DNA from: a virus
Taxonomy: Duplodnaviria; Caudoviricetes
Virus record (IMG/VR): IMGVR_UViG_3300021255_000054
DNA: 64,000 bases
Strand: one strand, 5' to 3'
The position numbers were made by a program, and so were the translations under genes. Shown in pieces: positions 19,697-63,598 of the stretch. Position 1 is the first letter of the stretch. Each line of letters begins with the position of its first letter. Below the pieces are notes generated by a model, which was not told the DNA's origin, searched no databases, and worked only from the letters and a program-made list of their open reading frames with translations.

Positions 19697-22600
19697 ATGG
19701 CGTATGAAAAATTCAATCCTACGACTTATAGTAATTCTACTTGGTCTACTGGAGACCCAATTACGTAGGAACGAATGAATAAAATTGAGACGGGTATAAA
19801 TCAAGTTACGCAAGATGTTATTAAAGTTGATTCTAATGCTGATGCTTTATATGATAGTATTGCCGAAATAGATACTATAGCACGTAATGCGGGTACTACA
19901 GCGAGTAATGCTTAGACATTAGCTTAGTCAGTATCAAATGAACTGCCTGCAATAGATTAGAAGGCATCACATGGTGAATCTGCTTATAGTGCATTATCTG
20001 CAGGTATAACTGAATTTAATGCCCCGAGTATGGGTTTGCTGATGAATACTATTAAAACTTATATCAACACTGAGAATAGTACATAGAATAGTACAATCAG
20101 TTCTCATACTACAGATATAGGCGCTTTACAAGGCGTTATTCAAAACGCTATCATTGCAACACGTAATAATGCAGTTGTAGCAAGTTCTCCAATAGAAACT
20201 CTCGCGGCTCGTATCTTAAATCTTTATGATACTATTAGAGCAGTAGATGATAGAGTTACAACTATTGGTCAAAATACTAATGACACTGCCGGTATGATTC
20301 GTGATGAAAAATATTCTAGCCGTTTAGATGCGTTAGATGGCGGAAAAGAAACTGTTTATTCTGGTAAAACTGTACCTGAAATTAATTAGGAATTAAATGA
20401 TGCTCATACTTCTACTGCTATTAAAACTAATAATAAAGATACTGTTTATAATAGTTTAGATGAACGTTTGGAAGCATCAGAAAATAAGTTAGTAACAGTA
20501 GAAAATGAAGTTGTAACTGCTCGTGGTTCTAGTGCAAGTTTAAATGTTCGTTTAAGTCAAATTGATGGTTCAGGCGCAAATACTCAGGCTACTAGAATTA
20601 GTAATCTTGAAAATGAGGTTACTACTGCGCGTGGTGAAAGCGATAATTTAAATGCTAGATTAAATACTATGCTTACTACTAATGATGTTAAAAATAATTT
20701 ATAGTATGTAAGTACTGGTGCTGATGATCGCTCTGTATTACATGCGGCGTAGGGTAAAGCATTAAATGATAGATTAACATTAGCTGAGCAAGAAATTGCA
20801 AATGCGCATCGTGAATTAGGTACTGATCCAGAGACTGGAAACGCTATTGTTGATACATTAGATAAGCGTTTCGATGAATTAGAAGAAAGCGTTGCTGGTA
20901 TTGATAATATATTAGATGGCGCATTAGTTTCTTCCATCGTGCGTACTCCCGGTGAGAATGACGGAGATCCAGATACTGATACTACATATGCTAATTTGGA
21001 TGCACGTTTAGAAGCAATTGAATCTCACGCAGCCGCAGTTCGTACCGATGTTAATGCTATGGCGGAAGAATTAGATATGCTTGATGGTACTGCTATTAAA
21101 AATACTAATACTAGAATTGATAGTATTGAGGGCGAGATTGATGCAGCTCATCGTACTGATGATGATACATTAAGTGCTCGTTTTAGTGCGGTTGAATCAG
21201 GCGTTTCTGGTTTAAATTCTACTATTACTAATGCAGAAACTGGTCTTGCTAAGACAAAAGAAATTGCTGATGAAGCTTTAGATAAAGCAAATAAAGCGGC
21301 AGTGGCTACTGAGGTTACTAGTGCATTAGCGGGTAAGGCTTCTACTTAGAGTGTAAGTGACTTATCTGATAGAGTGACTACACTAGAAGAATCAGGGACT
21401 GTTGTAATAGATAATGTTACTTATGATAATGATGGTAATCCTAGTAATATAGGAACTACACCATCTCCAGATGTAGATTATTTATTAAAGAAAGGTGACA
21501 AATATTATTATTGGAAATATATTCCAAATAATACAGTTCCAGTAACATATACATGGGCTTTAATCAGTGGTGGTTCTAGTGAAGGTGGCGGCGGAACCTC
21601 ATCTGCATAGATTGTAGCTACTTTACCCGCGGCTGAAGCAGCTGATATAAATACTGATTATTATGTAGGAAATAATAATGATGGATACTTACATTATCGT
21701 TATATTGAACAGAGTGGAAGTTCTACATTATTACCAATATTAATTGGCGTTGATCCTGCTAAGTTAAAAACATATAATATGATTAAGACTACTGGTGGTA
21801 CTGAATCAGAGCCTATTAATTATTTGGATCTATATGAATTTAATTATGGTGAAAGTAATACTTTAAGAGACGACGATTTGCCTTCAGATACTAAACGTAT
21901 CGCTCATATTGTACTTCCACAAGGTGGCGGCGGTAGTGCTACTACAGCTAATACCAAGTTAGTACGTATTGCGCCAACTTCAATTACTACTATCTTTAAT
22001 AAGCAAGGCATCTTTTTAAGATTCTTTTATTCTTGCTATGACAACAGTGGAGAGTCTCATGAAGGTACCTATTCATTACGTAATAGTAATAATATTGAAC
22101 TATTAACAGGTAAAATTAATAGTGGTGCAATTGATGCTACAGTAAATGGATGGCCCGAGGGACGTGCGGATGGAATTACATATGATGATGGATATGTTTC
22201 TCTTAATGTAGAATCATTCTGTAGATTAGGTATGAATACTTTTAATTTAGTAATGACTACCGGTACAAATGAAACTCTTTATCGTCAATATACAGTTGAT
22301 ATTAAAGAATTACGTTTGGAATCTAATGCACCAGAAACATTAATCACTGATTTAAATTCTACTGCTGAATTAGTCTATACACCTTTTGGCGCACTAGAAA
22401 AATATTTACATGTATCTGTTGATGACAATGAAATTGATACAGTACTTTTACGCGCGAATAATACTGGTAATGAATTAACATATAATATTCCTGCTTAGGC
22501 GCAAGGGCATCATAAAATACAATTTTATCTTTCTACTGAACTTAATGGTAAGACAATCAATACTGATCCACCAATCACTAGAGATTATATTTGGCGTGAT

Positions 22601-25600
22601 AGTACAGCAGAAGATATTACAATATTGGCTTCTTCATACCGTGATAGTATTAAAGAAGTTACTTAGTATGATGAAGTAGAAATTCCTTATACTCTTTATT
22701 CTACTGATTCTTCTGTATTAGTAGAATATTATTATGATTATAATCCAGAACAAGAGAATACACCTTTCTCTTCTGCAATATTAACTAATACCAATAGCGG
22801 TATTTTACGTTATAGTGCTAATGAAGCAGGCGATCATACATTAACTATTAAAGCTAATGATGCTATGATTACTATTGGTTTAGATGTAACAGATCTACCA
22901 ATTGACATTGCTCCCGTGGGCGGCGCAATTATTGACTTTAATCCTGCTTTATTAACTAATACTTCAGTTGGGCGTGAGCCTGAATGGGTTGTTAATAAGG
23001 GATTAGCTAATGAAAAAACATATAAATTATCTGTATCTGATAACTTTAACTGGTCCACTAATGCAGAAGATAGTGGTGGTGGCTATCGTGATGATGTTGA
23101 TGGCAAATGTTTTGTCATTCGTGCTGGAGACTATGCTACTTTAAATTATAAAATGTTTACTCAAAACAATGTAGGAACTGGCGGTATTACTAAAACTACT
23201 AGTAAAGTTTTTGATCAGGGCGTAGAAATGAAAATTATTTTTAAAGTTTCTGCTGTTCGTGATGCTAAAGCAGTTTGGCTAACAAATATGGGTAAATATG
23301 TTGCTACAGATGATAAGCAAGTAGGTATTGAACTTAGCGCACATAGCGGTAGATTAATGACTGATAAAGCCACTTCAACTGCAACCAAAGTTACAGAAGA
23401 AGATATTATTGAATAGGGCTATGCATTATGGGAGGCTAATCATACTTATACTCCTGGCGATATTGTAGTAGTTAAAAAGAAAACTATTTATGAATGTATT
23501 ACAGAAACCATTAATTCAGTCTTTGATGATGATGAAGAAAAGAAATGGCGTAAAATTGGTCAGCTTGAAACTGAAGTCAGTGCAACAAATAGTTACCTAT
23601 ATTTCCCTTATTCTGAAGATGATAAGATTGAGTTAGACATTAATATTAATAAGACTGGTAATGGCGAAGACTTTATTATGTCTTATGAAGATGGCGTTCC
23701 TAGCAAAGCATATCCTTATGATTACGCCGCGGGCGGCGATATCTTATATCAAATAATCGGACAGGAATCTGATATTCGTATTGGTTCTCCTGACTGTGAC
23801 GTTTATATTTATCATATTAAAATTTATGACAATGCTCTTCAAACTAATCAAATTTTAAAGAACTTTATTGCAGATGGTAAGGATATTAATGAACGTGTTA
23901 ATAGATATAATCGTAATAGTATCTATTATAATAGTTCTACTGGTGAATTTACTCCATATGCTAGCTCTAGTGCTATATTAGATCCTATTCAGCTTGCAAA
24001 ACAATTACCTGATGTTAAAATATTAATGTTAGAGACTCCTCGTTTTACTACTGGTAAAAAGGACTTTGTACGCGGGACTCTACGTTGTATTCAAGCAAAG
24101 GGCGGGAAAGTTTATCCTGCGACTGATGAAGATAACTGGTTCTTCTTTAATGGCTATCATGCGGGGCAAGGAACTACATCTGATAACTATGGTCAATCTG
24201 CACGTAATGTTGACTTCTTATTTGAATGTGATGGGGTACATTATCCAACTAAGAAAAAGAATTTGACTGACTTTGAAAAGAATTGGCGGTCTGCAGTTAT
24301 TCATGGGAATGAAGGTTCGGTTTATCGTGATTTACGTGACCCAGCAAACCCTGCTGATAATCAAGTTATACGTGGACAATGGGAAGCCGCTTAGGGCGCG
24401 ACTATTGATGAATGTATTTATGATGAAAATCATGGAGGATGGATGGGTGCAGAATGTAAAGTATCATTAACCCATGATGCAGATAGCGGTGAAGATACAT
24501 CAATTCCTAACAATTACTTCAATTTAAAAGTTAATGTTGCTTCTTCTGAGAATGTAAATAACGCTCTATTCCAGAAGAGATATAATGATTTCTTACCATA
24601 TACTTCTCCCGCAAAACAGCGTGATAGTCGTATTAAAAATGGTATGGAATTTGTACCTGCAATTCTATTTATTCGTGAGACTGGTACAGGATCTCATAGT
24701 GAATTTAAGGATAATAACTGGCACTTCTATGCATTAGGAAATATTGGTGACTCTAAAAAGTCAGACTATACTCGTGCGTATGATCCAGAAGATATGAATG
24801 AATTCACTATTGAAATTTCTGATAATAATACCGCAAACTCTCAGTTCCAGTCTGGCGTTTATAAAAATGCTTCAACTAATAATGTTGAAACTATTGAGAC
24901 TAGCGCAACCGAAACTGATCCAATGGATTATGTATATCCAATTAGCTCTGAATAGTGGAATACGAAAGACGAACAGGGACAATATATTAATTATCGTCAT
25001 AAAACACTTTCTACAGAAGATTTTGATGGAGACCATTCATTTGAATTCCGTTATGCTTGCTGTGGTGATTATCGTGATGGCGATTTAATTAATGACACAC
25101 ATGGTGATAGTACAGTACCAAATCCTGATCCCGAAGAAGCAAATGATAAACCATATCTTACTAAAGATGATGTACAGTTTGATTTAAATCGTGGAATATG
25201 GGAAGCATTCTATGAATGGGTTGTCACAGCAGATGAAACACAATTCAGAAATGAAGCTTCTTTATGGATCGTGCCCGAAGCTATGGAATTCTTCTATGCA
25301 TTTACTCATTATTATACAATGATGGATAATCGCGCAAAAAATACATTCTGGCATTTTGCTAAAACTAATGTATGGAAAAAAGTTCCTATTGGACGTGCTG
25401 TTCCTGCATTATTCCATATATATGAAATAGATGATGGTAACGGTGGGCATAGACCAATTGAAGCAACAGAAACTTTTGATAATACAAAACAATATTGGAC
25501 ACAATATGCTTTTGATCTCTGGATATATGATACTGATACAGCTTGTGGTATTGATAACAACGGTGAATTAGTATTTCCATATGGTAAAGAAGACTTAGAT

Positions 25601-28600
25601 TATCGTGAAGCTAATGACCCGAACTCTGGTTGGGCATTTAATGGTTCTGGCTCTATCTTCTGGCGTCGTTTGAGTACTACATTTGCAGATGGAGTTACCA
25701 CAATAATGCGGCAATCTCCAGTCGAATGTTTCAGTGATGCTCAGAATTTAATTAATCAATTTGATAAATTCCAAGAGTGCTATCCAGAAGAGATTTGGCG
25801 CTTAGATATTCAGAGAAAGTATATTCGTACTTTCACTGGTAAGTCCTATGATAATTCTATTACTACTGGTAAACAAAATATTCGTTTCTTGAAAGCAATG
25901 ATGCAAGGACGTAAAAAGTATCAGCGTAGACAATGGGTTCGTGATTAGAGCATTTATTTTGGAAGTAAATATTTCCTTAATAATGTAGGCACGGATACTC
26001 ATACTATTGAATTTAATACTTATACACCTACTGCAGATGGAATTACTTCCCTCGCAGTTCCCGTTGATCGCGAACATGTAGTAGTTATTCCTTATCAAGA
26101 TATGTATATTAACGTTGCAGTAGGTAATAGTACAACCAATATAGCAGATCGTATTATTACTGATCAATATGCTAAGCGCGCGAAAGCGGGCGATCGTGTA
26201 ACTATTGATTGCCGTAGTGGTGGCTCTGCACAAGAAACTCGTGTATATATTTATGGCGCAGAACATATTGCCGCCATAGAAAACTTAGCACCAGCTTATA
26301 CTTATTCTGGCTCATTTGGCTAGGGCGTACGTCTAAAGCGCTTGGACTTAGGTTCAGATAATCCTGATTATAACAATCCAAGATTTACAAGTTTGAGCAT
26401 TAATGCGCGTATGCCAATTCTTGAATCTTTTAGTGTAAAGAATTGTAATATGCTCGGTGGTACTATTAATTTAAGTCAGAGTAATAACTTACGTGTCTTT
26501 GAAGCAGAAGGTAGTGCTATTACTGGTGTTTCATTACCAAATTATACACATATTCAATAGTTACATTTACCTTCTACTGTTACTAATCTTACTTTAACTT
26601 CTGCTCATGACTTATCTGATTTCTATATTCATGATGCTGATGGAGAAGAAAATTATGCCTCTTTAATTAGTTTAAATATTGATGATAGTGATTATTCTAG
26701 TAATATTAACTGGTTAGATGTTGCTAAGAGTGCCTTGAATGGAAGCTTAGATACATTATACTTACGACGCTTATCACATGCAAGTATTAATAATATTACT
26801 GAATTAGAGCCATTTGCAGTTAGAAAGAGATAGACAGAAGTAAATTATGATTCTGAAAACAACTTAATTCAAAAGATTGTATTGACTGGTATTTTAAATG
26901 TTACCGGTAATTGGTCTAATGTTGAAGTTCAACAATATGGTAAGCCTAATGGTATATGGCCTAATCTTGAATTTAATACTGACCCCGCGAATGAAAAAGT
27001 TAAATGTGAAGTTAGATATTATCACAGTGGCTATCTGGGACATGAGACACCAGAATATATTACTAATAGATTTATAGATGTCGAAACCGGAATTATTCCT
27101 GATATTTATCAAGGTATGTCTGGTGATGATCTACCTTCAAGAGAGCCAACTGCAGCAGAAGTATTCAGCTTTGGTTCTTATAATGAAGATGGATATATTC
27201 CATATTCTGGATGGACTACAGGTACTGACTCTAGCGCGCAATCTCTTATGGACTTAGGATATTCAGTAAATAGTCCATATTCTCCAGCTGCGGGTTAGAC
27301 GTTAATTAATCTATATACTTATTATTATGCCGAAGCGCATAAATACACTGTATAGTGGAAAGTAGGAGACAGAGTAGTAAAAGAAATTACCAATCAGGAT
27401 TATGGTGGCGGTTATACTCTAAAAGCACCAACTATTGCGGAAATGCGTAGTGCTGGTATAACAACTACAAAAGTAACACCTAATGCTAATGGTACATATA
27501 CTTATAGCATTCTTACTGGTTGGGAAAAATTACCTACTAATATCGCGCCAATTAATGATACGGAAAAGAATAGCAGTATATGCGTAATTAATGCTGTTTG
27601 GAGTGATGAAGTAACTGCAACCTTAGATGAAATCTTTGCAGATACTACTGAATTAACTCCAGAACAATTGTTAGTCTTCTCTAGAATAAGCGCCAGTACT
27701 TCTTCTATTAGTAGTATCGCGCAATAGCGTAGATTTAATTATCAAATGGGCTACTCTGGAATGAAAGAAGGCACTACATTAGTTGATAAAAATAATGTAA
27801 AGCGTATTAGTTCTAGTACCTTACCAATTAATATTAATAGTACAGTATTACCATTCTCTAAAAATGATGGATTTACATTAGCTATTGACTATCAATTTGG
27901 CGCGCAAGGGAACTCTACATTACCTGAAGTATTAGTAGGGTGCTATGATAGAACTGGAGATAGCGTCACAGGCTTTGCTTTATACCGTGGATTTAATGAC
28001 AATAATGGTGGCACTGGTACATTTGTATGCTATGGTCAAGCGCCATACTCCTATGATTCTACTAAACGTAGAAAGGTTGGTGACGCAGAACATAGAAATA
28101 TAATCGTATTACGTCATGAAAAGAATAGCTCAATCTTACATATATATAGTAGTAAAGCGGCAAATACAAGTTCAAATTTAAATACTACTATTGATGAAGG
28201 ACCAAGCACTATAATTGATATTTCTACTTAGAACTTAAGCGACAACGCACAAATTTGTATTGGTAATTTGCGCGCGGACTTAACAACTAATAGTAATTTT
28301 AGCGATGAATTAAATAATACTCGTGGCTCACAAGGCAGTGTTTATTGGATGAAGTATTGGAATGAAGACTTAGGTGCAGGAGAATGCTTATAGTTAGCAT
28401 CTTGGCCTCATGAAGATATGACTGCTATTATTACTGCTATTACTGGCGCTGCTACTGATTCTACTATGACAAGACCAAAGTTATATTTTACTAATTTAAA
28501 TTGTTCAAGTCATATTACTTTAACTAATAGTACATTAGTAGAAGGAAATGCCAATGAATAGGAAACTAAATCCGGTGGTTGGGCTGATTCTAATACAAAA

Positions 28601-29446
28601 ATCATATGTGATAATCGTATTTGGCAAGGTTTGCCGCCTATTCTATAGGCAATTATTGGTAAACCTACTATTGGTTATTATAATCATGATTTCCGCATCG
28701 TAGGCAGCGAATCAACACATAGTTTAAGTACATTAAAATTTGCAAATAATTCTTATGTATATGCGCCTTCTGTTAGTAGCTTAGATAATAGCTATGCCGG
28801 AACAGATACTAATAATTATGGCTTTGAATCTATTTATGAATTAACTGGTAAAACAGATAGCACGACTTCTGTAATTACTCCTTATGCTTGGCTTAAAGCG
28901 GGCACTAGCATGATTAGTGCTAAAGAATATCAAGGATCAAGTGCAGAAGTTAAATGGCGTGATATATCAAGTCCTAAAGCATATTGGTATAATATTAGAT
29001 TTAATGAAAAACCAGTAACTTGGTCTAATTCTAATAAATTAACTATTTATAAAGTTGATTCTTCTATGATGAACAATTAGACTTTCTATGATATAATTAA
29101 TCAAGGCACGGGTATTAAGACTGGTGATATTATTATTTATACAACTACTAATAGTAGTGGAACTTCTATTGAAGGTGTATATATGTATATTAGCAGTTCT
29201 GAAGCCGCGCAAAAGGGTATTTAGACATTACCGCAAACTAATGTATGGAAGACTGGTCCAGCAAATAGCGTTGATGGCGGTTGGATTAAGAGTACTCCAT
29301 ATGTTACACGTTCTGTTACAACAGGCACTGGTAGATATCCTAACTTTATTTATATTGATCAGGAAGGTGCTATTAATTCTCCTTCTAACTCTAACGATCA
29401 AGCCGGAACAGGCGAATTAAACATTGACTTTGCATTTACAATTTAA
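19697..29446 (+). CDS. giant (~3250 aa) virion-associated protein: coiled coil, LamG-like, CotH-kinase-like, LRR-like and DUF6273-like regions
   Basis: Thirteen track ORFs (20468 to 27746) all in one frame and each ending in TAG; SD AGGAGG; motifs [39 protein letters not shown]; TAA 29444-29446. Confidence 0.85.
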
Positions 29447-53794: not shown

Positions 53795-53867
53795 ATTTAC
53801 AGAAGGTAAGGAAAGGAACTTATCTTCTGTAAATTATTTTTTTCATTACATAAGGAGGTAATGAGAT

Positions 53868-54256: not shown

Positions 54257-54341
54257 TGCCCTGCGGTCCGTGGCGGACAGACGGTCTCTAAAACCGTGGC
54301 CTCTGAAGCAAACGAAGTTGGTTCGATTCCAACCAGGGCAG
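54257..54341 (+). tRNA. amber suppressor tRNA (anticodon CUA), probably Gln-charged
   Basis: Acceptor TGCCCTG/CAGGGCA plus G73; anticodon arm ACGGT-CTCTAAA-ACCGT; T arm GTTGG-TTCGATT-CCAAC; 19-nt variable region. Confidence 0.9.
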
Positions 54342-54632
54342 TTGCGGTATGTGCTTAATGAGTACGTACTTTGTAAAGGAAAATGTAGTTCAGCGGGATG
54401 CTGGCTTATACTAGTTGACATTTTTTTTAATACAATCTCCAGTAAGAGCAAAAAACTGCCACGGGCTGGGTGAAATGCCCCGGGTCCACCTTCCTTGCCT
54501 ACGGTGAGTGTCCGTTCAAGGCAGAAAACATGCGGTCCGGCCGGACGCGACGATGGCTAGTTTGGGGTTTTACGCCACGCTCTTTAGGCAGCGCAACCCG
54601 CTATGACGAGATCTTAGCACGCTTGCCTATAT

Positions 54633-55877: not shown

Positions 55878-56138
55878 ATGAAGATTGAATATATTCCTAA
55901 ATTTTATCTTAAGGAGATCGCTGCGATAGTATTGGAGCGACGCCATAATGAGCCTTCATATTTATCTATTTATGAAGAACTACATAATCATTTCTTTGAA
56001 GGAGATGATGTTTATGGAGTTAATTTGAATATGCCTGCTTTTATTAATTATTCTCCTAATATTGAATTAGCATATGAATTATTAATGCAAGAAGGCAAGC
56101 TATCTGTTGGTGATGAATTTGAAATTTGCGCAGATTAA
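55878..56138 (+). CDS. hypothetical protein
   Basis: ORF track; resembles the next gene. Confidence 0.65.
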   Translation: MKIEYIPKFYLKEIAAIVLERRHNEPSYLSIYEELHNHFFEGDDVYGVNLNMPAFINYSPNIELAYELLMQEGKLSVGDEFEICAD

Positions 56139-56195
56139 TATTTGACCTAAAATAAAAATTATGATATAATAATTATGTTGAAAGGGGATAAGAGA

Positions 56196-56529: not shown

Positions 56530-56532
56530 CAT

Positions 56533-56561
56533 TTGACTTATATCAAAATTTTTGATATAAT
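56533..56561 (+). promoter_or_regulatory. sigmaA promoter directly upstream of CAGCAA element 1
   Basis: TTGACT-17-TATAAT with TGn. Confidence 0.8.
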
Positions 56562-56572
56562 AAATATGAACA

Positions 56573-56681
56573 AAGGCTCCTGCAGCAAATTTTCTTTGGA
56601 CTGTAAATCCCCGTGTCATTGGTTCGATTCCAATCCCGAATAGGGTAGCTCAGCTAGGTAGAGCAGGTAATTAGGAGTCTT
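56573..56681 (+). ncRNA. CAGCAA element 1: circularly permuted tRNA-Tyr(GTA)-like RNA
   Basis: Stem AAGGCTCC/GGAGTCTT; order is anticodon loop, T arm, CCC-GAATA-GGG, D arm. Confidence 0.8.
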
Positions 56682-57002
56682 GTAACTCAAACTGCGGCAA
56701 TAAGCCGAATCCTTAGCCGTTGTGCGTGCTACTCGTATAGTAACACAATAGTCAGCGGTTAGTTGGAGACCGTAGTGCGGCAACGGTATACAAAAACGCA
56801 CCGTGTGGTAGAGATTGCCCGTTAGGTTCCTCACTACTAGCAACGATAGGGCATAAATAAAGAAGTCTCCTAACTCTAATATGCTCCTGAACAAGAGCCG
56901 GTGGATCTTACGGTGAAAACCCGTAGTAAAGAACGACAAAACTGCTCACTTGCGCAAGGGGTTTATGGTTATCCTCGCTTTGGCGAAAAACCTTATCAAT
57001 AT

Positions 57003-57073: not shown

Positions 57074-57498
57074 CGACGCGATGCTAGTAGCGTAAGAAAA
57101 GACTAGCCGTGGCTAAGCGCAGAATCGTATTGGCGCTAGAGTTCTTGGACGCAAGATAGCTCGCACTTCTGAATGGCCAATCAGAAGTCATTAAATTGGG
57201 CCGAAAAACAGGAAGGCTGAGGAAAATGGATTGGAAGTCCTGGGCAGCTCTTAGGGTCGCGCCCTAAACTGGAAAACCAAAGCAGCTTCATCTACTGCTC
57301 CTGTCACAATGTGTAGGCCGAATTATTTCACTCGCAAGGCGCGTGAAGCCAGCGCAAATCTGGCTGAGTGGCTCCGCGGAGATAACCGCGGCGTAAGGTA
57401 ACTGAAATGCAAACCAGCGCAGATACATGACCTGCGCAGTAGAAATTAAAGGTGCCGCGCTGATAGACCGCAAGTTCGCAATAGTCTATTATTTATAT

Positions 57499-57576
57499 CA
57501 TCTATGTAGCTCAGAGATAGTAGAGTGCTCCCGCAGTAATGGGAGAGGTCGAAGGTGCGAATCCTTTCATAGATGA
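57499..57576 (+). tRNA. atypical tRNA with 8-nt anticodon loop (GCAGTAAT)
   Basis: Good acceptor, D and T arms; CTCCC/GGGAG stem; no U33. Confidence 0.6.
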
Positions 57577-57703: not shown

Positions 57704-57706
57704 CTT

Positions 57707-57822
57707 TAGACATATCAGCAATCATTCTTGCTAGAGGAGCCCGTTCAGTGTTGGTTTAAATCCAACCCACCCGACCATCGGGTGGTCGCTCAATTGTTAG
57801 AAGCACGGTAAAAGTATGTCTA
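57707..57822 (+). ncRNA. CAGCAA element 2: permuted tRNA-like RNA with internal CCA
   Basis: Stem TAGACATA/TATGTCTA; T arm, CCACCCGA-CCA-TCGGGTGG, D arm. Confidence 0.78.
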
Positions 57823-57828
57823 GTTTTT

Positions 57829-58258: not shown

Positions 58259-58756
58259 ATGAAAATGAGTAATCTAAAAACTAGACAAATTACAGGTATC
58301 GCTATCTTAACTGCGCTTTATTGTGTATTAAGCGCAATGATGAAGATCCCATTTATAGGTGCAATTTCTCTTGATTTGGGGTATATTGCACTTACAGTAG
58401 GATGCACGCTATTTGGCCCTTGGGCCGCTGTTATTGGTGCTGTAGGATGTGGACTTGAAAGTATTCTTTTTTCGCCATATGGCTTCAGTATCAGTTGGTT
58501 CGTAGCAAATTTAATTATCGGCCTTGGATGCGGAATCGTGTTCAAGAAAACCGAGAATATTTGGCTACGAATTGCCGCAATAGTAGGATTCGTTGCGGTA
58601 GGTATGCTTGGCGCGAAAACTGGTATTGAGTGCTACTTGTATCATATTCCATTTGCAGTTAAGATTGTAAAAAATGCAGTAGCATTTGGCGTTGATACTA
58701 TTACAATGCTGATTGGTTTAAGTATTAGTAATAGAGTAGTAAAATATTGGAAATAA
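58259..58756 (+). CDS. ECF transporter S component (substrate-binding membrane protein)
   Basis: Multiple TM helices, AxxxA in TM1, IP...LFGP..A..G pattern. Confidence 0.8.
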   Translation: MKMSNLKTRQITGIAILTALYCVLSAMMKIPFIGAISLDLGYIALTVGCTLFGPWAAVIGAVGCGLESILFSPYGFSISWFVANLIIGLGCGIVFKKTENIWLRIAAIVGFVAVGMLGAKTGIECYLYHIPFAVKIVKNAVAFGVDTITMLIGLSISNRVVKYWK

Positions 58757-59132: not shown

Positions 59133-59208
59133 TAGGCGCGAGCAGCATGATATTTATAAGAATTATTTATTTGATGAACTTCTTATTGGTTTTTGTTATT
59201 TGCGCCTA
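59133..59208 (+). ncRNA. CAGCAA element 3 (CAGCAT variant, AU-rich hairpin cargo)
   Basis: Stem TAGGCGCG/TGCGCCTA. Confidence 0.55.
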
Positions 59209-59319: not shown

Positions 59320-59393
59320 AGACACGTCAGCAACTATCTTTTAATGCATCAAGAATTAAGCACCGGGTCGGCTCCGGGAAGATAAGCGTGTCT
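59320..59393 (+). ncRNA. CAGCAA element 4 (D-like and T-like hairpins)
   Basis: Stem AGACACG/CGTGTCT; inner TATCTT/AAGATA; CCGG-GTCGGCT-CCGG. Confidence 0.65.
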
Positions 59394-60553: not shown

Positions 60554-60615
60554 AAGACTCGTCAGCAACTTTTCAAGCATTGGACTTTTAATCTAACTAG
60601 CTATAAACGAGTCTT
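60554..60615 (+). ncRNA. CAGCAA element 5 carrying a tRNA-Lys(TTT) anticodon stem-loop
   Basis: Stem AAGACTCG/CGAGTCTT; TTGGA-CTTTTAA-TCTAA. Confidence 0.72.
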
Positions 60616-62328: not shown

Positions 62329-62665
62329 CTTACCAACGGACAAGGCTTAGGCGCATGACTACTTAGGCGATGAGGGAGTGCGTGAATAACGTGACAGTGA
62401 CCTCTAACCGAGTGGAACAGGGCGGTGGGACGCGAGTGGTTGGTAATTTATAGCAGAAGGCACGGCAGTACAGCGCCCCGAAAGGACAAAACCATTACAA
62501 TATTCTGCTTATTATATGGAACTAATCTATCCAGAGTTCCTGCGGTTCAAGGATGGGGTTTGCGGCACCTTAGACCGCTATTATATGGGTAGCATTAGGG
62601 TAGCTCCCTAATGAGATTAAGGTACTCTCCTACCGGCCATAATTATTATCAGGAGAGTGATAAAA

Positions 62666-63598
62666 ATGGAGAATACAAATTGTGGAATTTATAAAATTAC
62701 TAATAATATAAATGGTCATAGTTATATTGGTAAAAGTACGAATATATCGCACAGATGGATTGAACATAAATGTCATTCAAAAACAGATGATTGTGCTTTA
62801 TATCGAGCCATGCGTAAGTATGGAATTGAAAATTTCTCATTTGAAGTTATTTAGTATGCTTTACCAGATGAATTAGAAGAATTAGAACAATATTATATTG
62901 AATTATATAATACTTATCATAGCCGGGAAGGTTATAATGAAACTGCGGGAGGAGATGGCCGATTAAAACATGATTATAATAAAATTGTAGAATTATGGAA
63001 TCAAGGCTATCTATGTTAGGATATTGAAATTATATTAGGATGCTGTGATAAAGTAATAAATAATGCGTTACATAGTTACGGGATAACAGATGAAGAAATT
63101 TCTAAGCAAGCGCGAGCTAAAAAAGCTATTTCAATTACTGCTTATGACCCTAAAACAAAAAAGCCATTAAAAATATTTCATTCATTATATGCTATCAATA
63201 AATTCTTTAAAGATGAACACGCAGGTTCAAGAATTTTAAATTCACTTAATGAACCTTTATATCATCGACATGTAGGATTTAGATGGGCTTATACTAAAGA
63301 TGAAGATTATAAATTACCTATATTATCAGATGAAGAATTTCTTTCTCATCAAAAGAAATGTAAAATTGCTCCAATGAGTGAAGAGGCAAGAACACGCTTA
63401 AGTCAAGAACGTAGAACTGTTGAACGACCGTCTCGTGATGAACTAAAACAAATGATTCGTACTATGCCATTTACTCATATTGGAGATAAATATAATTTAT
63501 GTGATAATAGTATTAGAAAATGGTGTATAGCTTATAATTTACCGAAAACAAAAAAAGAAATTAACAAATATACAGACGAAGAATGGGAGAAGATTTAA
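62666..63598 (+). CDS. free-standing GIY-YIG homing endonuclease (2 TAG)
   Basis: GIYKITN..YIGKS..RW.EH; GYN.T.GG; track ORFs 62657 and 63374 in frame. Confidence 0.88.

What the first reader, a model, noticed from the sequence alone, without database searches (positions are those of the whole stretch)
56573..56681. Circularly permuted tRNA-Tyr with a loop-sealed, truncated acceptor stem and its own promoter
Seen: 5'-GGA-CTGTAAA-TCC-CC-GTGTC-[T arm ATTGG-TTCGATT-CCAAT]-CCC-GAATA-GGG-TA-[D arm GCTC-AGCTAGGTA-GAGC]-A-GG-3'. Joining the terminal GG to the leading GGA rebuilds a perfect 5-bp anticodon stem GGGGA/TCCCC, so the permutation point is inside the anticodon stem and the carrier stem is grafted there. 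The acceptor is only 3 bp and closed by a loop, so it cannot be aminoacylated. A consensus sigmaA promoter ends 12 nt upstream. Inference: an intact Tyr anticodon and elbow without a CCA end fit a decoy for tRNA-Tyr-cleaving defences (retron Ec78 PtuAB targets tRNA-Tyr) or a ligand for TyrRS/T-box elements.
Basis: partly seen in the sequence, partly recalled or inferred. Interest (0 to 1): 0.85.

Follow-up and report, generated by a model that had tools for sequence, protein, structure and literature searches.

The report
Phage Y-like RNA mimicking tRNA-Tyr
The "permuted tRNA-Tyr" is real, but it is best read as one of seven small RNA genes in this phage that share a conserved "handle" and most likely partner the phage's own Ro60-like protein, so it is a new variant of the known Ro60/Y-RNA particle whose tRNA look-alike still carries a complete anticodon arm.

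Summary
Window 56598-56667 holds a tRNA body in the order anticodon hairpin, variable loop, T arm, loop-closed 3-bp acceptor, D arm. Its terminal GG completes a nicked 5-bp anticodon stem (GGGGA/TCCCC). ARAGORN calls tRNA-Tyr(GUA) on the circularised sequence. A near-consensus promoter ends 12 nt upstream.

It is not a decoding tRNA. It is one of 7 same-strand elements in this 189.6-kb TAG-recoded phage that share a covarying closing stem followed directly by CAGCAA.

- **RNA family:** Related phages hold 71 more such elements, and a pattern scan found over 120 further viral contigs. In 51 of 65 tRNA-like members the hairpin and the distal pairs add up to exactly 5 bp; shuffles give about 5.
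- **Known family:** Rfam sees only the YrlA tRNA-like core (36.5 bits, cut-off 69). The canonical Ro-binding motif and a TROVE gene are absent.
- **Protein partner:** The phage encodes a DUF2828 protein whose model (pLDDT 92.5) matches Ro60 structures over its full length. It sits among RNA-repair genes.
- **Linkage:** DUF2828 occurs in 21 of 25 CAGCAA-RNA phages against 1 of 32 others. The handles cluster on its strand within 9 kb (49 against 6).

Verdict: a Y-RNA-like tRNA mimic of a Ro60-like particle, and a new variant of a known kind. The decoy idea is neither shown nor excluded. This scan has noted the same handle/DUF2828 pairing on other DNA.

The parts
56533..56561 (+). Promoter-like site: TTGACT (56533-56538), 17-nt spacer, TG-extended TATAAT (56556-56561)
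   Evidence: 11 of 12 matches with TG before the second hexamer. The cassette 56531-56576 recurs in related phages, in L173 directly ahead of another handle RNA. Function as a promoter is inferred, not shown.
56573..56582 (+). 5' strand of the closing (carrier) stem, AAGGCTCCTG
   Evidence: Pairs with 56672-56681. The stem covaries across 31 relatives: 6 of 9 pairs show changes on both sides. Its G-U pairs are valid only on the + strand.
56583..56588 (+). CAGCAA motif, the conserved single-stranded part of the handle and the candidate protein-binding site
   Evidence: CAGCA is invariant in alignment A1. The motif is present in all 7 elements of this genome and in 71 unique elements of related phages. 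Binding is inferred from co-occurrence and linkage with DUF2828.
56589..56597 (+). U-rich linker ATTTTCTTT
   Evidence: A U-rich stretch occupies this position in most aligned family members.
56598..56610 (+). Anticodon-like hairpin GGA-CTGTAAA-TCC: 3 bp and a 7-nt loop with GUA in the anticodon position
   Evidence: The same hairpin occurs in L136:8997-9114 and L145:2399-2515. Across 41 distinct family loops, position 32 is a pyrimidine in 30, position 33 is U in 33, position 37 is a purine in 38 and position 38 is A in 36.
56611..56612 (+). CC, which pairs with GG 56666-56667 and completes the nicked 5-bp anticodon stem
   Evidence: One search gives the configuration as 3 hairpin pairs plus 2 distal pairs. 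By eye, the distal helix covaries in relatives: CC/GG, CG/CG, AA/TT, CCG/CGG, ACG/CGT, CGG/CCG, CGC/GCG, CATT/AATG (sequences).
56613..56617 (+). 5-nt variable loop GTGTC, with C48 as the partner of G15
   Evidence: Read directly from the sequence. The stretch 56598-56631 is 91% identical over 34 nt to enterobacterial tRNA-Phe genes.
56618..56634 (+). T arm ATTGG-TTCGATT-CCAAT
   Evidence: Rfam YrlA and tRNA alignments. Covariation: 4 of 5 pairs show changes on both sides.
56635..56645 (+). Loop-closed acceptor-like stem CCC-GAATA-GGG, 3 bp, the shortest in the aligned family
   Evidence: Most other aligned members have 6-7 bp here, one has 4, and all 7 aligned pairs covary.
56646..56665 (+). 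U8 A9, D arm GCTC-AGCTAGGTA-GAGC, and A26
   Evidence: Rfam YrlA alignment. D stem covariation is shown.
56666..56667 (+). GG, the 5' strand of the distal two pairs of the anticodon stem
56668..56671 (+). A/U-rich 3' linker TAAT
   Evidence: A TAA-rich linker precedes the 3' strand in most family members.
56672..56682 (+). 3' strand of the closing stem, TAGGAGTCTT, plus the conserved unpaired G
   Evidence: The 3' end G(T/C)CT(A/T)G is conserved across the family.
57706..57823 (+). Sister element E2: same handle, with a tRNA-like cargo whose 8-bp acceptor is closed by a CCA loop. It fills the gap between tRNA-Gly and tRNA-Asp.
   Evidence: Weak full-length Rfam YrlA match, 16.3 bits.
59133..59208 (+). 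Sister element E3: same handle with CAGCAT, and an A/U-rich cargo
59320..59393 (+). Sister element E4: same handle, with a cargo ending in a conserved CCGGG hairpin
   Evidence: Orthologues are listed.
60554..60615 (+). Sister element E5: same handle carrying only an anticodon-like arm with loop CTTTTAA (UUU)
   Evidence: Near-identical scaffolds in relatives carry GUU, GAU or GUA instead.

Best explanation
E1 (window about 56570-56682, + strand) is a small non-coding RNA gene with two modules.

[quoted passage not shown] All 7 such RNAs of this phage and a large phage RNA family share this handle. It is most likely the binding site of the phage's own Ro60-like protein. That protein is DUF2828 plus DUF7788, encoded at about 183.7-185.2 kb of the genome, 16 kb downstream on the same strand.

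**Module 2, the tRNA mimic in permuted order.** It has an elbow made of the T and D arms, a sealed 3-bp acceptor, and an anticodon arm. The 5-bp stem of that arm is assembled from a 3-bp hairpin stacked on 2 distal pairs, so the RNA chain enters and leaves through a nick in the stem. The 7-nt loop stays intact and shows GUA.

**Proposed working.** By analogy with Ro60 and YrlA, the protein ring holds the handle. The tRNA-shaped module then presents a non-chargeable tRNA surface to tRNA-recognising factors. It could act as a tether, or as a substrate, decoy or sensor for enzymes that act on anticodon loops. This would be part of the phage's RNA quality-control and repair kit (kinase, phosphoesterase, RlaP, RNA ligase).

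**Shown here:** the anatomy, the covariation, the family, the protein fold, the co-occurrence and the genomic linkage.

**Inferred:** physical binding, expression and processing, and which factor the tRNA module engages.
For: **Anatomy.**

**Family in this genome.** 7 same-strand elements lie in the tRNA region.

**Family elsewhere.**
- 71 unique elements occur in 60 related loci, with a strand bias of 127 to 19 under a loose filter.

**Structure.**
- 99.7% of cells are paired, 20 of 25 pairs are compensatory, 0 of 500 shuffles reach this, and slid controls pair at about 40%.
- The composite 5-bp anticodon stem is perfect in 51 of 65 elements, against 5.3 expected. The nick falls at different places: 2+3 in 21 elements, 3+2 in 18, 4+1 in 4 and 0+5 in 8.

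**Protein.**
- PF11443 scores 95.8 bits and PF25043 150 bits.
- The MIDAS motif DxSxS is invariant.
- The AlphaFold2 model has pLDDT 92.5 and pTM 0.92.
- The 12 best Foldseek matches in the PDB are all Ro60/TROVE proteins over the full length. The best is 1yvr, E 1.9e-9, TM 0.57. They include phage phiLo Ro60 and Deinococcus Rsr.

**Association.**
- DUF2828 is present in 21 of 25 CAGCAA-RNA phage records, against 1 of 32 records with canonical YrlA-type RNAs or plain tandem tRNAs (Fisher 1.2e-10).
- TROVE shows the mirror image: 15 of 17 against 1 of 25.

**Linkage.** Within 9 kb of DUF2828 in 20 genomes there are 49 same-strand handles against 6 on the opposite strand. Shuffles give about 3.6. 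Handles are present at 19 of 20 loci, and several lie directly upstream of the gene.

**Gene context.** A P-loop kinase (AAA_33/KTI12), a metallophosphoesterase, RlaP (PF10127), an RNA ligase (PF09414) and NADAR lie around the Ro-like gene.

**Precedent.** Ro60 binds Y RNAs through a terminal stem plus a conserved motif, and bacterial and phage YrlA RNAs carry a tRNA-like module with a sealed acceptor (PMC4201824; bioRxiv 10.1101/312249; PMC12135203).
Against: - No binding, expression or processing data exist for any of these RNAs.
- The handle lacks the canonical Ro-binding motif (GNCGAAN0-1G, or CGAA).
- Rfam YrlA matches only the tRNA-like core, below its cut-off.
- E1 lies 16 kb from the DUF2828 gene, not beside it.
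- The co-occurrence statistics treat phage records as independent. Many may be relatives, so part of the signal could be shared ancestry.
- 4 of the 25 CAGCAA-type records show no DUF2828 match. At least two of those four have doubtful stems.
- The minimum-free-energy fold of the single sequence does not recover the tRNA-like fold and is no better than shuffles. This is also common for real tRNAs.
Confidence: 0.7

Rival explanations
1. E1 is a free-standing decoy or competitive ligand. It soaks up a host anticodon nuclease aimed at tRNA-Tyr, or it occupies a T-box or TyrRS. The carrier stem only stabilises the RNA, and no Ro-like protein is involved.
For: - The anticodon loop and elbow are intact and there is no acceptor end.
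- Sister elements show bare anticodon arms. In near-identical scaffolds the triplet differs between phages: UUU, GUU, GAU, GUA.
- The phage carries 25 tRNAs and RNA-repair genes, which fits pressure from tRNA-cutting defences.
- Phage tRNAs are known to counter anticodon nucleases (PMC11555353, PMC11464382).
Against: - This reading does not explain why an invariant CAGCAA handle is kept across very different cargoes.
- It does not explain why that handle tracks the DUF2828 gene in presence, strand and distance.
- The displayed triplets across the family cover many amino acids, not only known nuclease targets.
- The two readings are not exclusive. A decoy or sensor role could be what the particle does.
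Confidence: 0.15
2. E1 is a canonical YrlA Y RNA that works with a host TROVE-type Ro60 (Rsr), not with the phage DUF2828 protein.
For: - The best Rfam match is YrlA: 36.5 bits, E 5e-6 to 7e-7, model positions 23-88.
- The arm order and the sealed acceptor are those of YrlA (PMC4201824).
Against: - The score is far below the gathering score of 69.
- The Rsr-binding half of the model is unmatched, and there is no GNCGAA motif.
- The phage has no TROVE gene.
- In phage records, TROVE goes with a different flank type (TTACTT...TACGT) and almost never with CAGCAA: 1 of 25.
- The host is unknown, so a host Rsr cannot be excluded.
Confidence: 0.08
3. E1 is a dead by-product of recombination between neighbouring tRNA genes, made of the 3' part of one and the 5' part of the next, and has no function.
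For: - YrlA-type RNAs have been proposed to descend from dimeric tRNA transcripts (bioRxiv 10.1101/312249).
- E1 has the shortest acceptor of the aligned family.
- No orthologue above 82% identity was found in the 60 related loci.
Against: - It has its own strong promoter.
- It has an intact handle.
- All tertiary-contact bases are kept.
- The same GGA-CTGTAAA-TCC hairpin is retained in two diverged phages.
- Covariation across the family shows selection on the fold.
Confidence: 0.04
4. E1 is a true circularly permuted tRNA-Tyr gene, of the kind known in the red alga Cyanidioschyzon (recalled from established knowledge, not checked in a paper here). In this reading it is processed into a decoding tRNA, filling the phage's missing tRNA-Tyr.
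For: - ARAGORN calls tRNA-Tyr on the circularised sequence.
- The phage has no ordinary tRNA-Tyr among its 25 tRNAs.
Against: - Only 3 acceptor pairs exist, and they are closed by a 5-nt loop.
- There are no bases from which a 7-bp acceptor, a discriminator and a CCA end could be made.
- ARAGORN's acceptor reuses loop bases, with two mismatches.
- Bacteria and phages lack the splicing endonuclease route used for permuted tRNA genes (established knowledge).
Confidence: 0.02

Closest known systems
YrlA-type bacterial and phage Y RNAs with Ro60/Rsr (Rfam RF02553; Chen et al. 2014, PMC4201824; structure in bioRxiv 10.1101/312249; phage phiLo Ro60 with Yrl1 and Yrl2, PMC12135203)
   Same: - Two-module design: a stem joining the 5' and 3' ends with a conserved motif beside it, plus a tRNA-like module in the order T arm, loop-closed acceptor, D arm, with the tRNA tertiary bases kept.
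- Encoded by a genome that also encodes a Ro60-fold ring protein with a vWA/MIDAS domain.
- The gene neighbourhood has RNA-repair enzymes.
   Different: - The motif is CAGCAA directly after the stem, not GNCGAAN0-1G or CGAA.
- The protein is Pfam DUF2828 plus DUF7788, not TROVE. Sequence searches do not connect them; only the fold does.
- Salmonella YrlA lacks an anticodon loop. E1 has a complete 7-nt loop on a 5-bp stem that is nicked by the chain.
- The E1 acceptor is only 3 bp.
- E1 sits in a tRNA array with its own promoter, 16 kb from the protein gene.
Dictyostelium Class I RNAs (PMC7919456; published search pattern GTTGRCCTTACAGCAA ... GTCAACTG in PMC5054030)
   Same: - A short stem joins the 5' and 3' ends.
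- A conserved motif ending in CAGCAA lies next to the 5' strand.
- The 3' strand is followed by an unpaired G, directly in E1 and after one base (TG, AG) in Class I RNAs and most sister elements.
- The rest of the RNA is variable.
   Different: - Class I RNAs are eukaryotic, 42-65 nt long, and not reported to have tRNA-like cargo.
- Their known binder is an RRM protein, Rnp1A.
- Four bases (CTTA) separate the stem from CAGCAA.
- No Rfam family of this kind scored on the sister elements E3 to E5 or on the E1 and E2 regions.
- Homology is untested here.
Phage tRNAs that counter anticodon nucleases (T5 tRNAs against retron Eco7 and PARIS: PMC11555353, PMC11464382)
   Same: Both are phage-encoded RNAs with the anticodon arm of a tRNA species that defence nucleases are known to target (Tyr, Lys), and both lie in a large phage tRNA array.
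   Different: Those are complete, chargeable tRNAs that replace cut host tRNAs. E1 cannot be charged and carries a protein-binding handle.
Circularly permuted tRNA genes of algae and archaea
   Same: The 3' half of the tRNA is encoded before the 5' half.
   Different: Those genes keep a full acceptor stem, and their linker is cut away to give a working tRNA. Here the acceptor is sealed and cut down to 3 bp, and the break is in the anticodon stem.

Membership tests
YrlA / bacterial Y RNA (Rfam RF02553) | tRNA-like module in the order T arm, loop-closed acceptor stem, D arm, with the tRNA tertiary bases | tested here: met
   The Rfam alignment covers model positions 23-88. Covariation of the three helices in 31 relatives is shown.
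YrlA / bacterial Y RNA (Rfam RF02553) | Score at or above Rfam's gathering score (69 bits) over the whole model | tested here: not met
   36.5 bits, core only. E2 scores 16.3 bits over the full length.
YrlA / bacterial Y RNA (Rfam RF02553) | Ro-binding module: terminal stem with a GNCGAAN0-1G (CGAA) motif near the 5' end (PMC4201824, PMC12135203) | tested here: not met
   A terminal stem is present, but the motif beside it is CAGCAA. No GNCGAA occurs in 56570-56600.
YrlA / bacterial Y RNA (Rfam RF02553) | Encoded near a TROVE-domain Ro60 gene on the same strand | tested here: not met
   PF05731 gives no match in the complete phage genome. A Ro60-fold protein of another Pfam family is present instead.
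CAGCAA-handle RNAs linked to DUF2828 (unnamed; not found in Rfam or in the papers searched) | Closing stem of 7-10 bp joining the ends, with CAGCA(A/T) 0-2 nt after the 5' strand | tested here: met
   56573-56582 pairs with 56672-56681, and CAGCAA lies at 56583-56588. CAGCA is invariant in alignment A1.
CAGCAA-handle RNAs linked to DUF2828 (unnamed; not found in Rfam or in the papers searched) | Conserved ends: 5' (A/T)AG(A/G)C and 3' G(T/C)CT(A/T) followed by an unpaired G | tested here: met
   E1 reads AAGGC ... GTCTT G.
CAGCAA-handle RNAs linked to DUF2828 (unnamed; not found in Rfam or in the papers searched) | The same genome encodes a DUF2828 (Ro60-fold) protein on the same strand | tested here: met
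   The family-wide association is shown.
CAGCAA-handle RNAs linked to DUF2828 (unnamed; not found in Rfam or in the papers searched) | The RNA is bound by the DUF2828 protein | not testable with these tools
   The complex predictor offered here takes no RNA chain. A binding assay is needed.
Functional tRNA, including permuted tRNA genes | 7-bp acceptor stem with a free 5' end and a 3' discriminator plus CCA after processing | tested here: not met
   Only CCC/GGG is present, closed by GAATA. ARAGORN's call on the circularised sequence borrows loop bases.
Functional tRNA, including permuted tRNA genes | Cloverleaf arms and anticodon loop of standard geometry | tested here: met
Dictyostelium Class I RNA | Short terminal stem plus a conserved motif ending in CAGCAA beside the 5' strand | tested here: inconclusive
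   E1's architecture fits the published pattern (PMC5054030). The spacing differs, and no Rfam model scored on the E1 and E2 regions or on the sister elements E3 to E5. Homology was not tested.

The most novel reading that the evidence does not exclude
Phages with a DUF2828 Ro60-like ring carry sets of interchangeable handle RNAs. Their cargo is a chosen tRNA's anticodon arm, alone or mounted on a tRNA elbow. In this reading the particle is a programmable bait or sensor for host enzymes that cut or modify particular anticodon loops, and it is coupled to the phage's kinase, phosphoesterase and ligase repair kit. E1 would be the Tyr-specific bait. If the CAGCAA handle is homologous to that of the Dictyostelium Class I RNAs, it would also give those orphan RNAs a candidate protein partner.
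Probability: 0.2. Interest if true: 0.85.

Novelty: new variant of a known kind. Interest (0 to 1): 0.62.

Why it matters
Ro60 and its Y RNAs are a conserved RNA quality-control particle, and the job of the tRNA-like module in bacterial Y RNAs is still unknown.

This finding points to a large, unannotated sister branch with three features:
- a Ro60-fold protein that sequence models file under a "domain of unknown function";
- a distinct RNA handle (stem plus CAGCAA) found in neither Rfam nor the papers searched;
- tRNA mimics that keep a full anticodon arm whose triplet changes between phages.

That variation offers a direct experimental route to what the tRNA module is for: test which anticodon-loop enzymes see these RNAs.

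It also explains part of the "spacer" DNA in the tRNA arrays of large phages as RNA genes.

Tried and rejected
- **Single-sequence folding.** Folding E1 alone and with its downstream 320 nt gave no tRNA-like minimum-energy fold and no signal over shuffles (z -0.37 and -0.10). I relied on comparative evidence instead.
- **Similarity search in annotated phages.** It returned only short matches to tRNA-Phe genes.
- **blastn of E1 against 60 related loci.** It found no close orthologue. The best hit was 82% identical over 65 nt.
- **Retron-like reading.** I considered a closing stem followed by an AGC with a branching G. I dropped it because the phage has no reverse transcriptase (PF00078) and the elements are too many and too small.
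- **Queuosine idea.** I considered that the GUN anticodons mark substrates of the queuosine enzyme Tgt. I dropped it because the family shows many other triplets.
- **Variability of the triplet.** My attempt to show that it is the most variable site within near-identical scaffolds failed technically. The hairpin labelling was wrong in several clusters. That point rests on inspection only.
- **PDB sequence and profile searches with the DUF2828 protein.** They gave nothing significant. The only profile hits were TROVE proteins at E 0.94.
- **Rfam at relaxed thresholds.** It found no family for the sister elements E3 to E5.
- **Literature.** Searches for DUF2828, phage anticodon decoys and permuted tRNAs in phages found no description of this RNA family.
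Full report
**What is there**

The window is part of a complete 189,572-bp phage genome with direct terminal repeats. The phage reads TAG as a sense codon: long frames open only when TAG is read through. It carries 25 tRNA genes by ARAGORN, none of them tRNA-Tyr.

The finding lies in the tRNA array, after tRNA-Ile(UAU) and before tRNA-Met.

After a promoter-like site (TTGACT, 17 nt, TG-extended TATAAT, 56533-56561; 11 of 12 matches), the parts follow in this order:
- a stem strand AAGGCTCCTG (56573-56582);
- CAGCAA (56583-56588);
- a U-rich linker;
- a hairpin GGA-CTGTAAA-TCC;
- CC;
- a 5-nt variable loop GTGTC;
- a T arm;
- a 3-bp stem CCC/GGG closed by GAATA;
- TA;
- a D arm;
- A, then GG;
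- a short linker;
- the other stem strand TAGGAGTCTT (56672-56681).

GG plus GGA pairs with TCCCC. So a 5-bp anticodon stem is rebuilt from a 3-bp hairpin and 2 distal pairs, with the chain entering and leaving at the nick.

Every base that makes a standard tRNA tertiary contact is in place, as the sequence shows directly. ARAGORN sees nothing in the linear sequence. It calls tRNA-Tyr(GUA) once the sequence is doubled or circularised.

**It is not alone**

A note from the first stage (e1-5687357) pointed to four more elements in the window with the same terminal stem and CAGCAA. A script confirmed seven in the genome. All are on the + strand and all lie in the tRNA region. They share:
- a 5' strand (A/T)AG(A/G)C plus 3-5 variable bases;
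- CAGCA(A/T) directly after it;
- a 3' strand ending G(T/C)CT(A/T);
- then an unpaired G.

Two of them exactly fill the gap between neighbouring tRNAs. They would therefore be freed by ordinary tRNA end processing, which is an inference.

Proteins encoded inside the array gave 60 loci from related phages with 66-91% protein identity. These hold 71 further unique elements with the same handle, nearly all on the gene strand.

The cargo varies:
- a bare 5-bp hairpin with a 7-nt anticodon-like loop;
- such a hairpin plus a T arm;
- a tRNA body in normal order without acceptor ends;
- a tRNA body in permuted order, like E1.

Two phages carry E1-like RNAs with the identical GGA-CTGTAAA-TCC hairpin but diverged arms and a 6-bp acceptor (L136:8997-9114, L145:2399-2515).

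**The fold is under selection**

I aligned 31 permuted-order elements. RNAalifold recovers the closing stem, the T arm, the closed acceptor and the D stem. Of its 25 pairs, 20 show compensatory changes.

A pair count gives 99.7% of cells paired, and none of 500 shuffles reaches any of the five measures. Partners slid by one to three columns pair at about 40%. One caveat applies: the closing stem was part of how I picked the elements. The other three helices were not.

The distal helix next to the hairpin also covaries, by inspection: CC/GG, CG/CG, AA/TT, CCG/CGG, ACG/CGT, CGG/CCG, CGC/GCG, CATT/AATG.

Across 77 unique permuted-order elements from all loci, 65 could be evaluated.
- 51 of the 65 have a perfect composite 5-bp stem. 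After shuffling the partner strands the mean is 5.3 and the maximum is 11.
- The nick falls at different places (2+3, 3+2, 4+1, 0+5), but the sum stays five.
- The loops follow the anticodon-loop rule: pyrimidine 32, U33, three free positions, purine 37, A38.

E1's 3-bp acceptor is the shortest of the aligned set.

**What the databases say**

Rfam at its own cut-offs finds nothing at E1. At relaxed thresholds the only match is YrlA, the bacterial Y RNA. It scores 36.5 bits against a cut-off of 69, and only for model positions 23-88, the tRNA-like core.

YrlA RNAs bind the Ro60 orthologue Rsr through a terminal stem with a GNCGAAN0-1G motif. They carry a tRNA-like domain with a loop-closed acceptor (PMC4201824). 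The Salmonella structure shows a tRNA L-shape that lacks an anticodon loop (bioRxiv 10.1101/312249).

E1 has the same arm order and a terminal stem. It differs in having CAGCAA instead of that motif and in having a complete anticodon loop. The phage has no TROVE gene.

**The protein partner**

Two first-stage notes on other windows of this genome (e1-5687315, e1-5687310) named a "Ro60-like DUF2828" gene. I checked this.

- PF11443 matches a single frame of 533 codons, probably 503 residues from the ATG that its relatives use.
- Pfam adds DUF7788 at the C-terminus.
- An alignment of 92 diverse relatives has an invariant DxSxS motif, as in vWA/MIDAS domains.
- Sequence and profile searches of the PDB give nothing significant.
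- The AlphaFold2 model is confident (pLDDT 92.5, pTM 0.92).
- Its 12 best Foldseek matches are all Ro60/TROVE proteins aligned over the full length: Xenopus Ro 1yvr (E 1.9e-9, TM 0.57), human Ro60, Thermus phage phiLo Ro60 and Deinococcus Rsr. Only isolated vWA domains follow.

The neighbouring genes are a P-loop kinase (AAA_33/KTI12), a metallophosphoesterase, RlaP (the "RNA repair pathway" nucleotidyltransferase), an RNA ligase and NADAR. This is the kind of company Ro60 keeps in bacterial rsr-rtcB operons and in jumbo phages (PMC7790460, PMC7824862).

**Does the handle go with the protein?**

Of 122 matches, 79 have a closing stem right beside CAGCAA, for example TAGGATACnn ... nnGTATCCTG.

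An earlier, handle-blind pattern had found two other sets. One was phage RNAs of the canonical YrlA type, with flanks TTACTT ... TACGT. The other was plain tandem tRNAs.

I searched the records behind these three sets for both protein families.

| Record set | Records | With DUF2828 | With TROVE |
|---|---|---|---|
| CAGCAA-type RNAs | 25 | 21 | 1 |
| Canonical YrlA-type RNAs | 17 | 1 | 15 |
| Tandem tRNAs only | 15 | 0 | 2 |

- Fisher's test gives 1.2e-10 for DUF2828 (CAGCAA-type against the other two sets).
- It gives 2.1e-8 for TROVE (canonical YrlA-type against CAGCAA-type).
- At least two of the four CAGCAA-type records without DUF2828 had doubtful stems. One of these, the record of L196, is the single record with TROVE.

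Within 9 kb of the DUF2828 gene in 20 genomes there are 49 handles on the gene's strand and 6 on the other. Shuffled sequence gives about 3.6. Handles are present at 19 of 20 loci, and several lie directly upstream of the gene.

The phage records are not phylogenetically independent, so the p-values overstate the case. Even so, presence, strand and distance all point the same way. The parallel with Rsr and YrlA, which lie within 4 kb on the same strand (PMC4201824), is close.

**Reading**

E1 is best explained as a Y-RNA-like partner of the phage's Ro60-like protein. The handle binds the ring. The permuted tRNA body is the effector module.

What that module does is not known, even for YrlA. 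Three points here are suggestive:
- the module keeps a true anticodon arm;
- sister RNAs carry only that arm;
- in nearly identical scaffolds the triplet changes between phages (UUU, GUU, GAU, GUA, by inspection).

That pattern fits a surface offered to enzymes that read anticodon loops, such as nucleases, modification enzymes or the repair enzymes encoded next to the ring protein. No tool here could test it.

Faithful mimicry of bacterial tRNA-Tyr is unlikely. That tRNA has a long variable arm (established knowledge), whereas E1 has a 5-nt variable loop and a body nearest to tRNA-Phe genes.

**Comparison and novelty**

The closest known system is Ro60/Rsr with YrlA-type Y RNAs, including the phage phiLo pair (PMC12135203). 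E1 fails three of the four defining tests for YrlA membership: score, motif and TROVE linkage. It does share the design.

The handle also fits the published pattern of Dictyostelium Class I RNAs: a short stem, then a motif ending in CAGCAA, and a 3' strand followed by TG (PMC5054030, PMC7919456). Two earlier notes of this scan raised this lead. I could confirm the pattern, not the homology.

I found the CAGCAA RNA family neither in Rfam nor in the papers searched.

Other agents of this scan have reached the same handle/DUF2828 pairing on other genomes. That is not independent evidence, but it means the system has been seen before in this scan. What this finding adds is the anatomy of the tRNA module, namely the nicked but complete anticodon arm.

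I rate it a new variant of a known kind.

Noticed in passing
window 53797-53864 and 54346-54490: Rfam motifs cow-rumen-4 (63.7 bits) and cow-rumen-3 (100.6 bits), both of unknown function, flank the amber-suppressor tRNA (anticodon CUA, 54257-54341). cow-rumen-3 starts 5 nt after that tRNA.
   Followed up: no
window 57500-57575: A tRNA-like gene scored by Rfam (43.1 bits) but not called by ARAGORN. Its anticodon loop has 8 bases where the model has 7.
   Followed up: no
window 57075-57490: A GC-rich stretch of about 400 nt between tRNA-Met and the odd tRNA, with no credible reading frame and no Rfam match. Parts of it are conserved in related phages: 57203-57316 at 82-91%, and 57320-57487 at 77% in L136.
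   Followed up: partly
window 56708-56994: The 290 nt between E1 and tRNA-Met align at 69% with L174:9681-9965, which lies about 550 nt downstream of another handle RNA in that phage. There is no Rfam match. It may be a further non-coding RNA.
   Followed up: no
window 58259-58756: A gene inside the tRNA array encodes an ECF-transporter S component (PF07155, 55.4 bits). This is an unusual cargo for a phage and hints at a Firmicutes-type host.
   Followed up: no
window 56134-56186 and 56531-56576: Two copies of one promoter cassette (TTGAC-17-TATAAT plus about 15 nt downstream). The same cassette recurs many times in related phages, in L173 directly ahead of another handle RNA.
   Followed up: partly
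loci L039, L059, L078, L102 and others: Phage RNAs of the canonical, TROVE-linked YrlA type also carry a complete 5-bp hairpin with a 7-nt anticodon-like loop (CTGTTAA, CTTGTAA, CTGTGGA and others), followed by a 5-nt AGGTC-type variable loop before the T arm. The published 'V' stem-loop of YrlA may therefore be an anticodon arm (PMC4201824).
   Followed up: partly
window 19697-29446 and other long frames: Under TAG=Q a 3,249-residue frame and many other long frames open. The RNA-repair genes and the Ro-like gene contain no TAG, as expected for genes expressed before the code switch.
   Followed up: no
L302:659-792 (genome 175658-175791, just past the window): Between tRNA-Arg and tRNA-Val lies a T arm (GAGGTTCGAATCCTC) followed by further hairpins, with no CAGCAA handle. 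It is another tRNA-derived RNA of a different build.
   Followed up: no
window 62657-63598: A GIY-YIG homing endonuclease gene (PF01541; phrog_314) sits inside the tRNA array.
   Followed up: no
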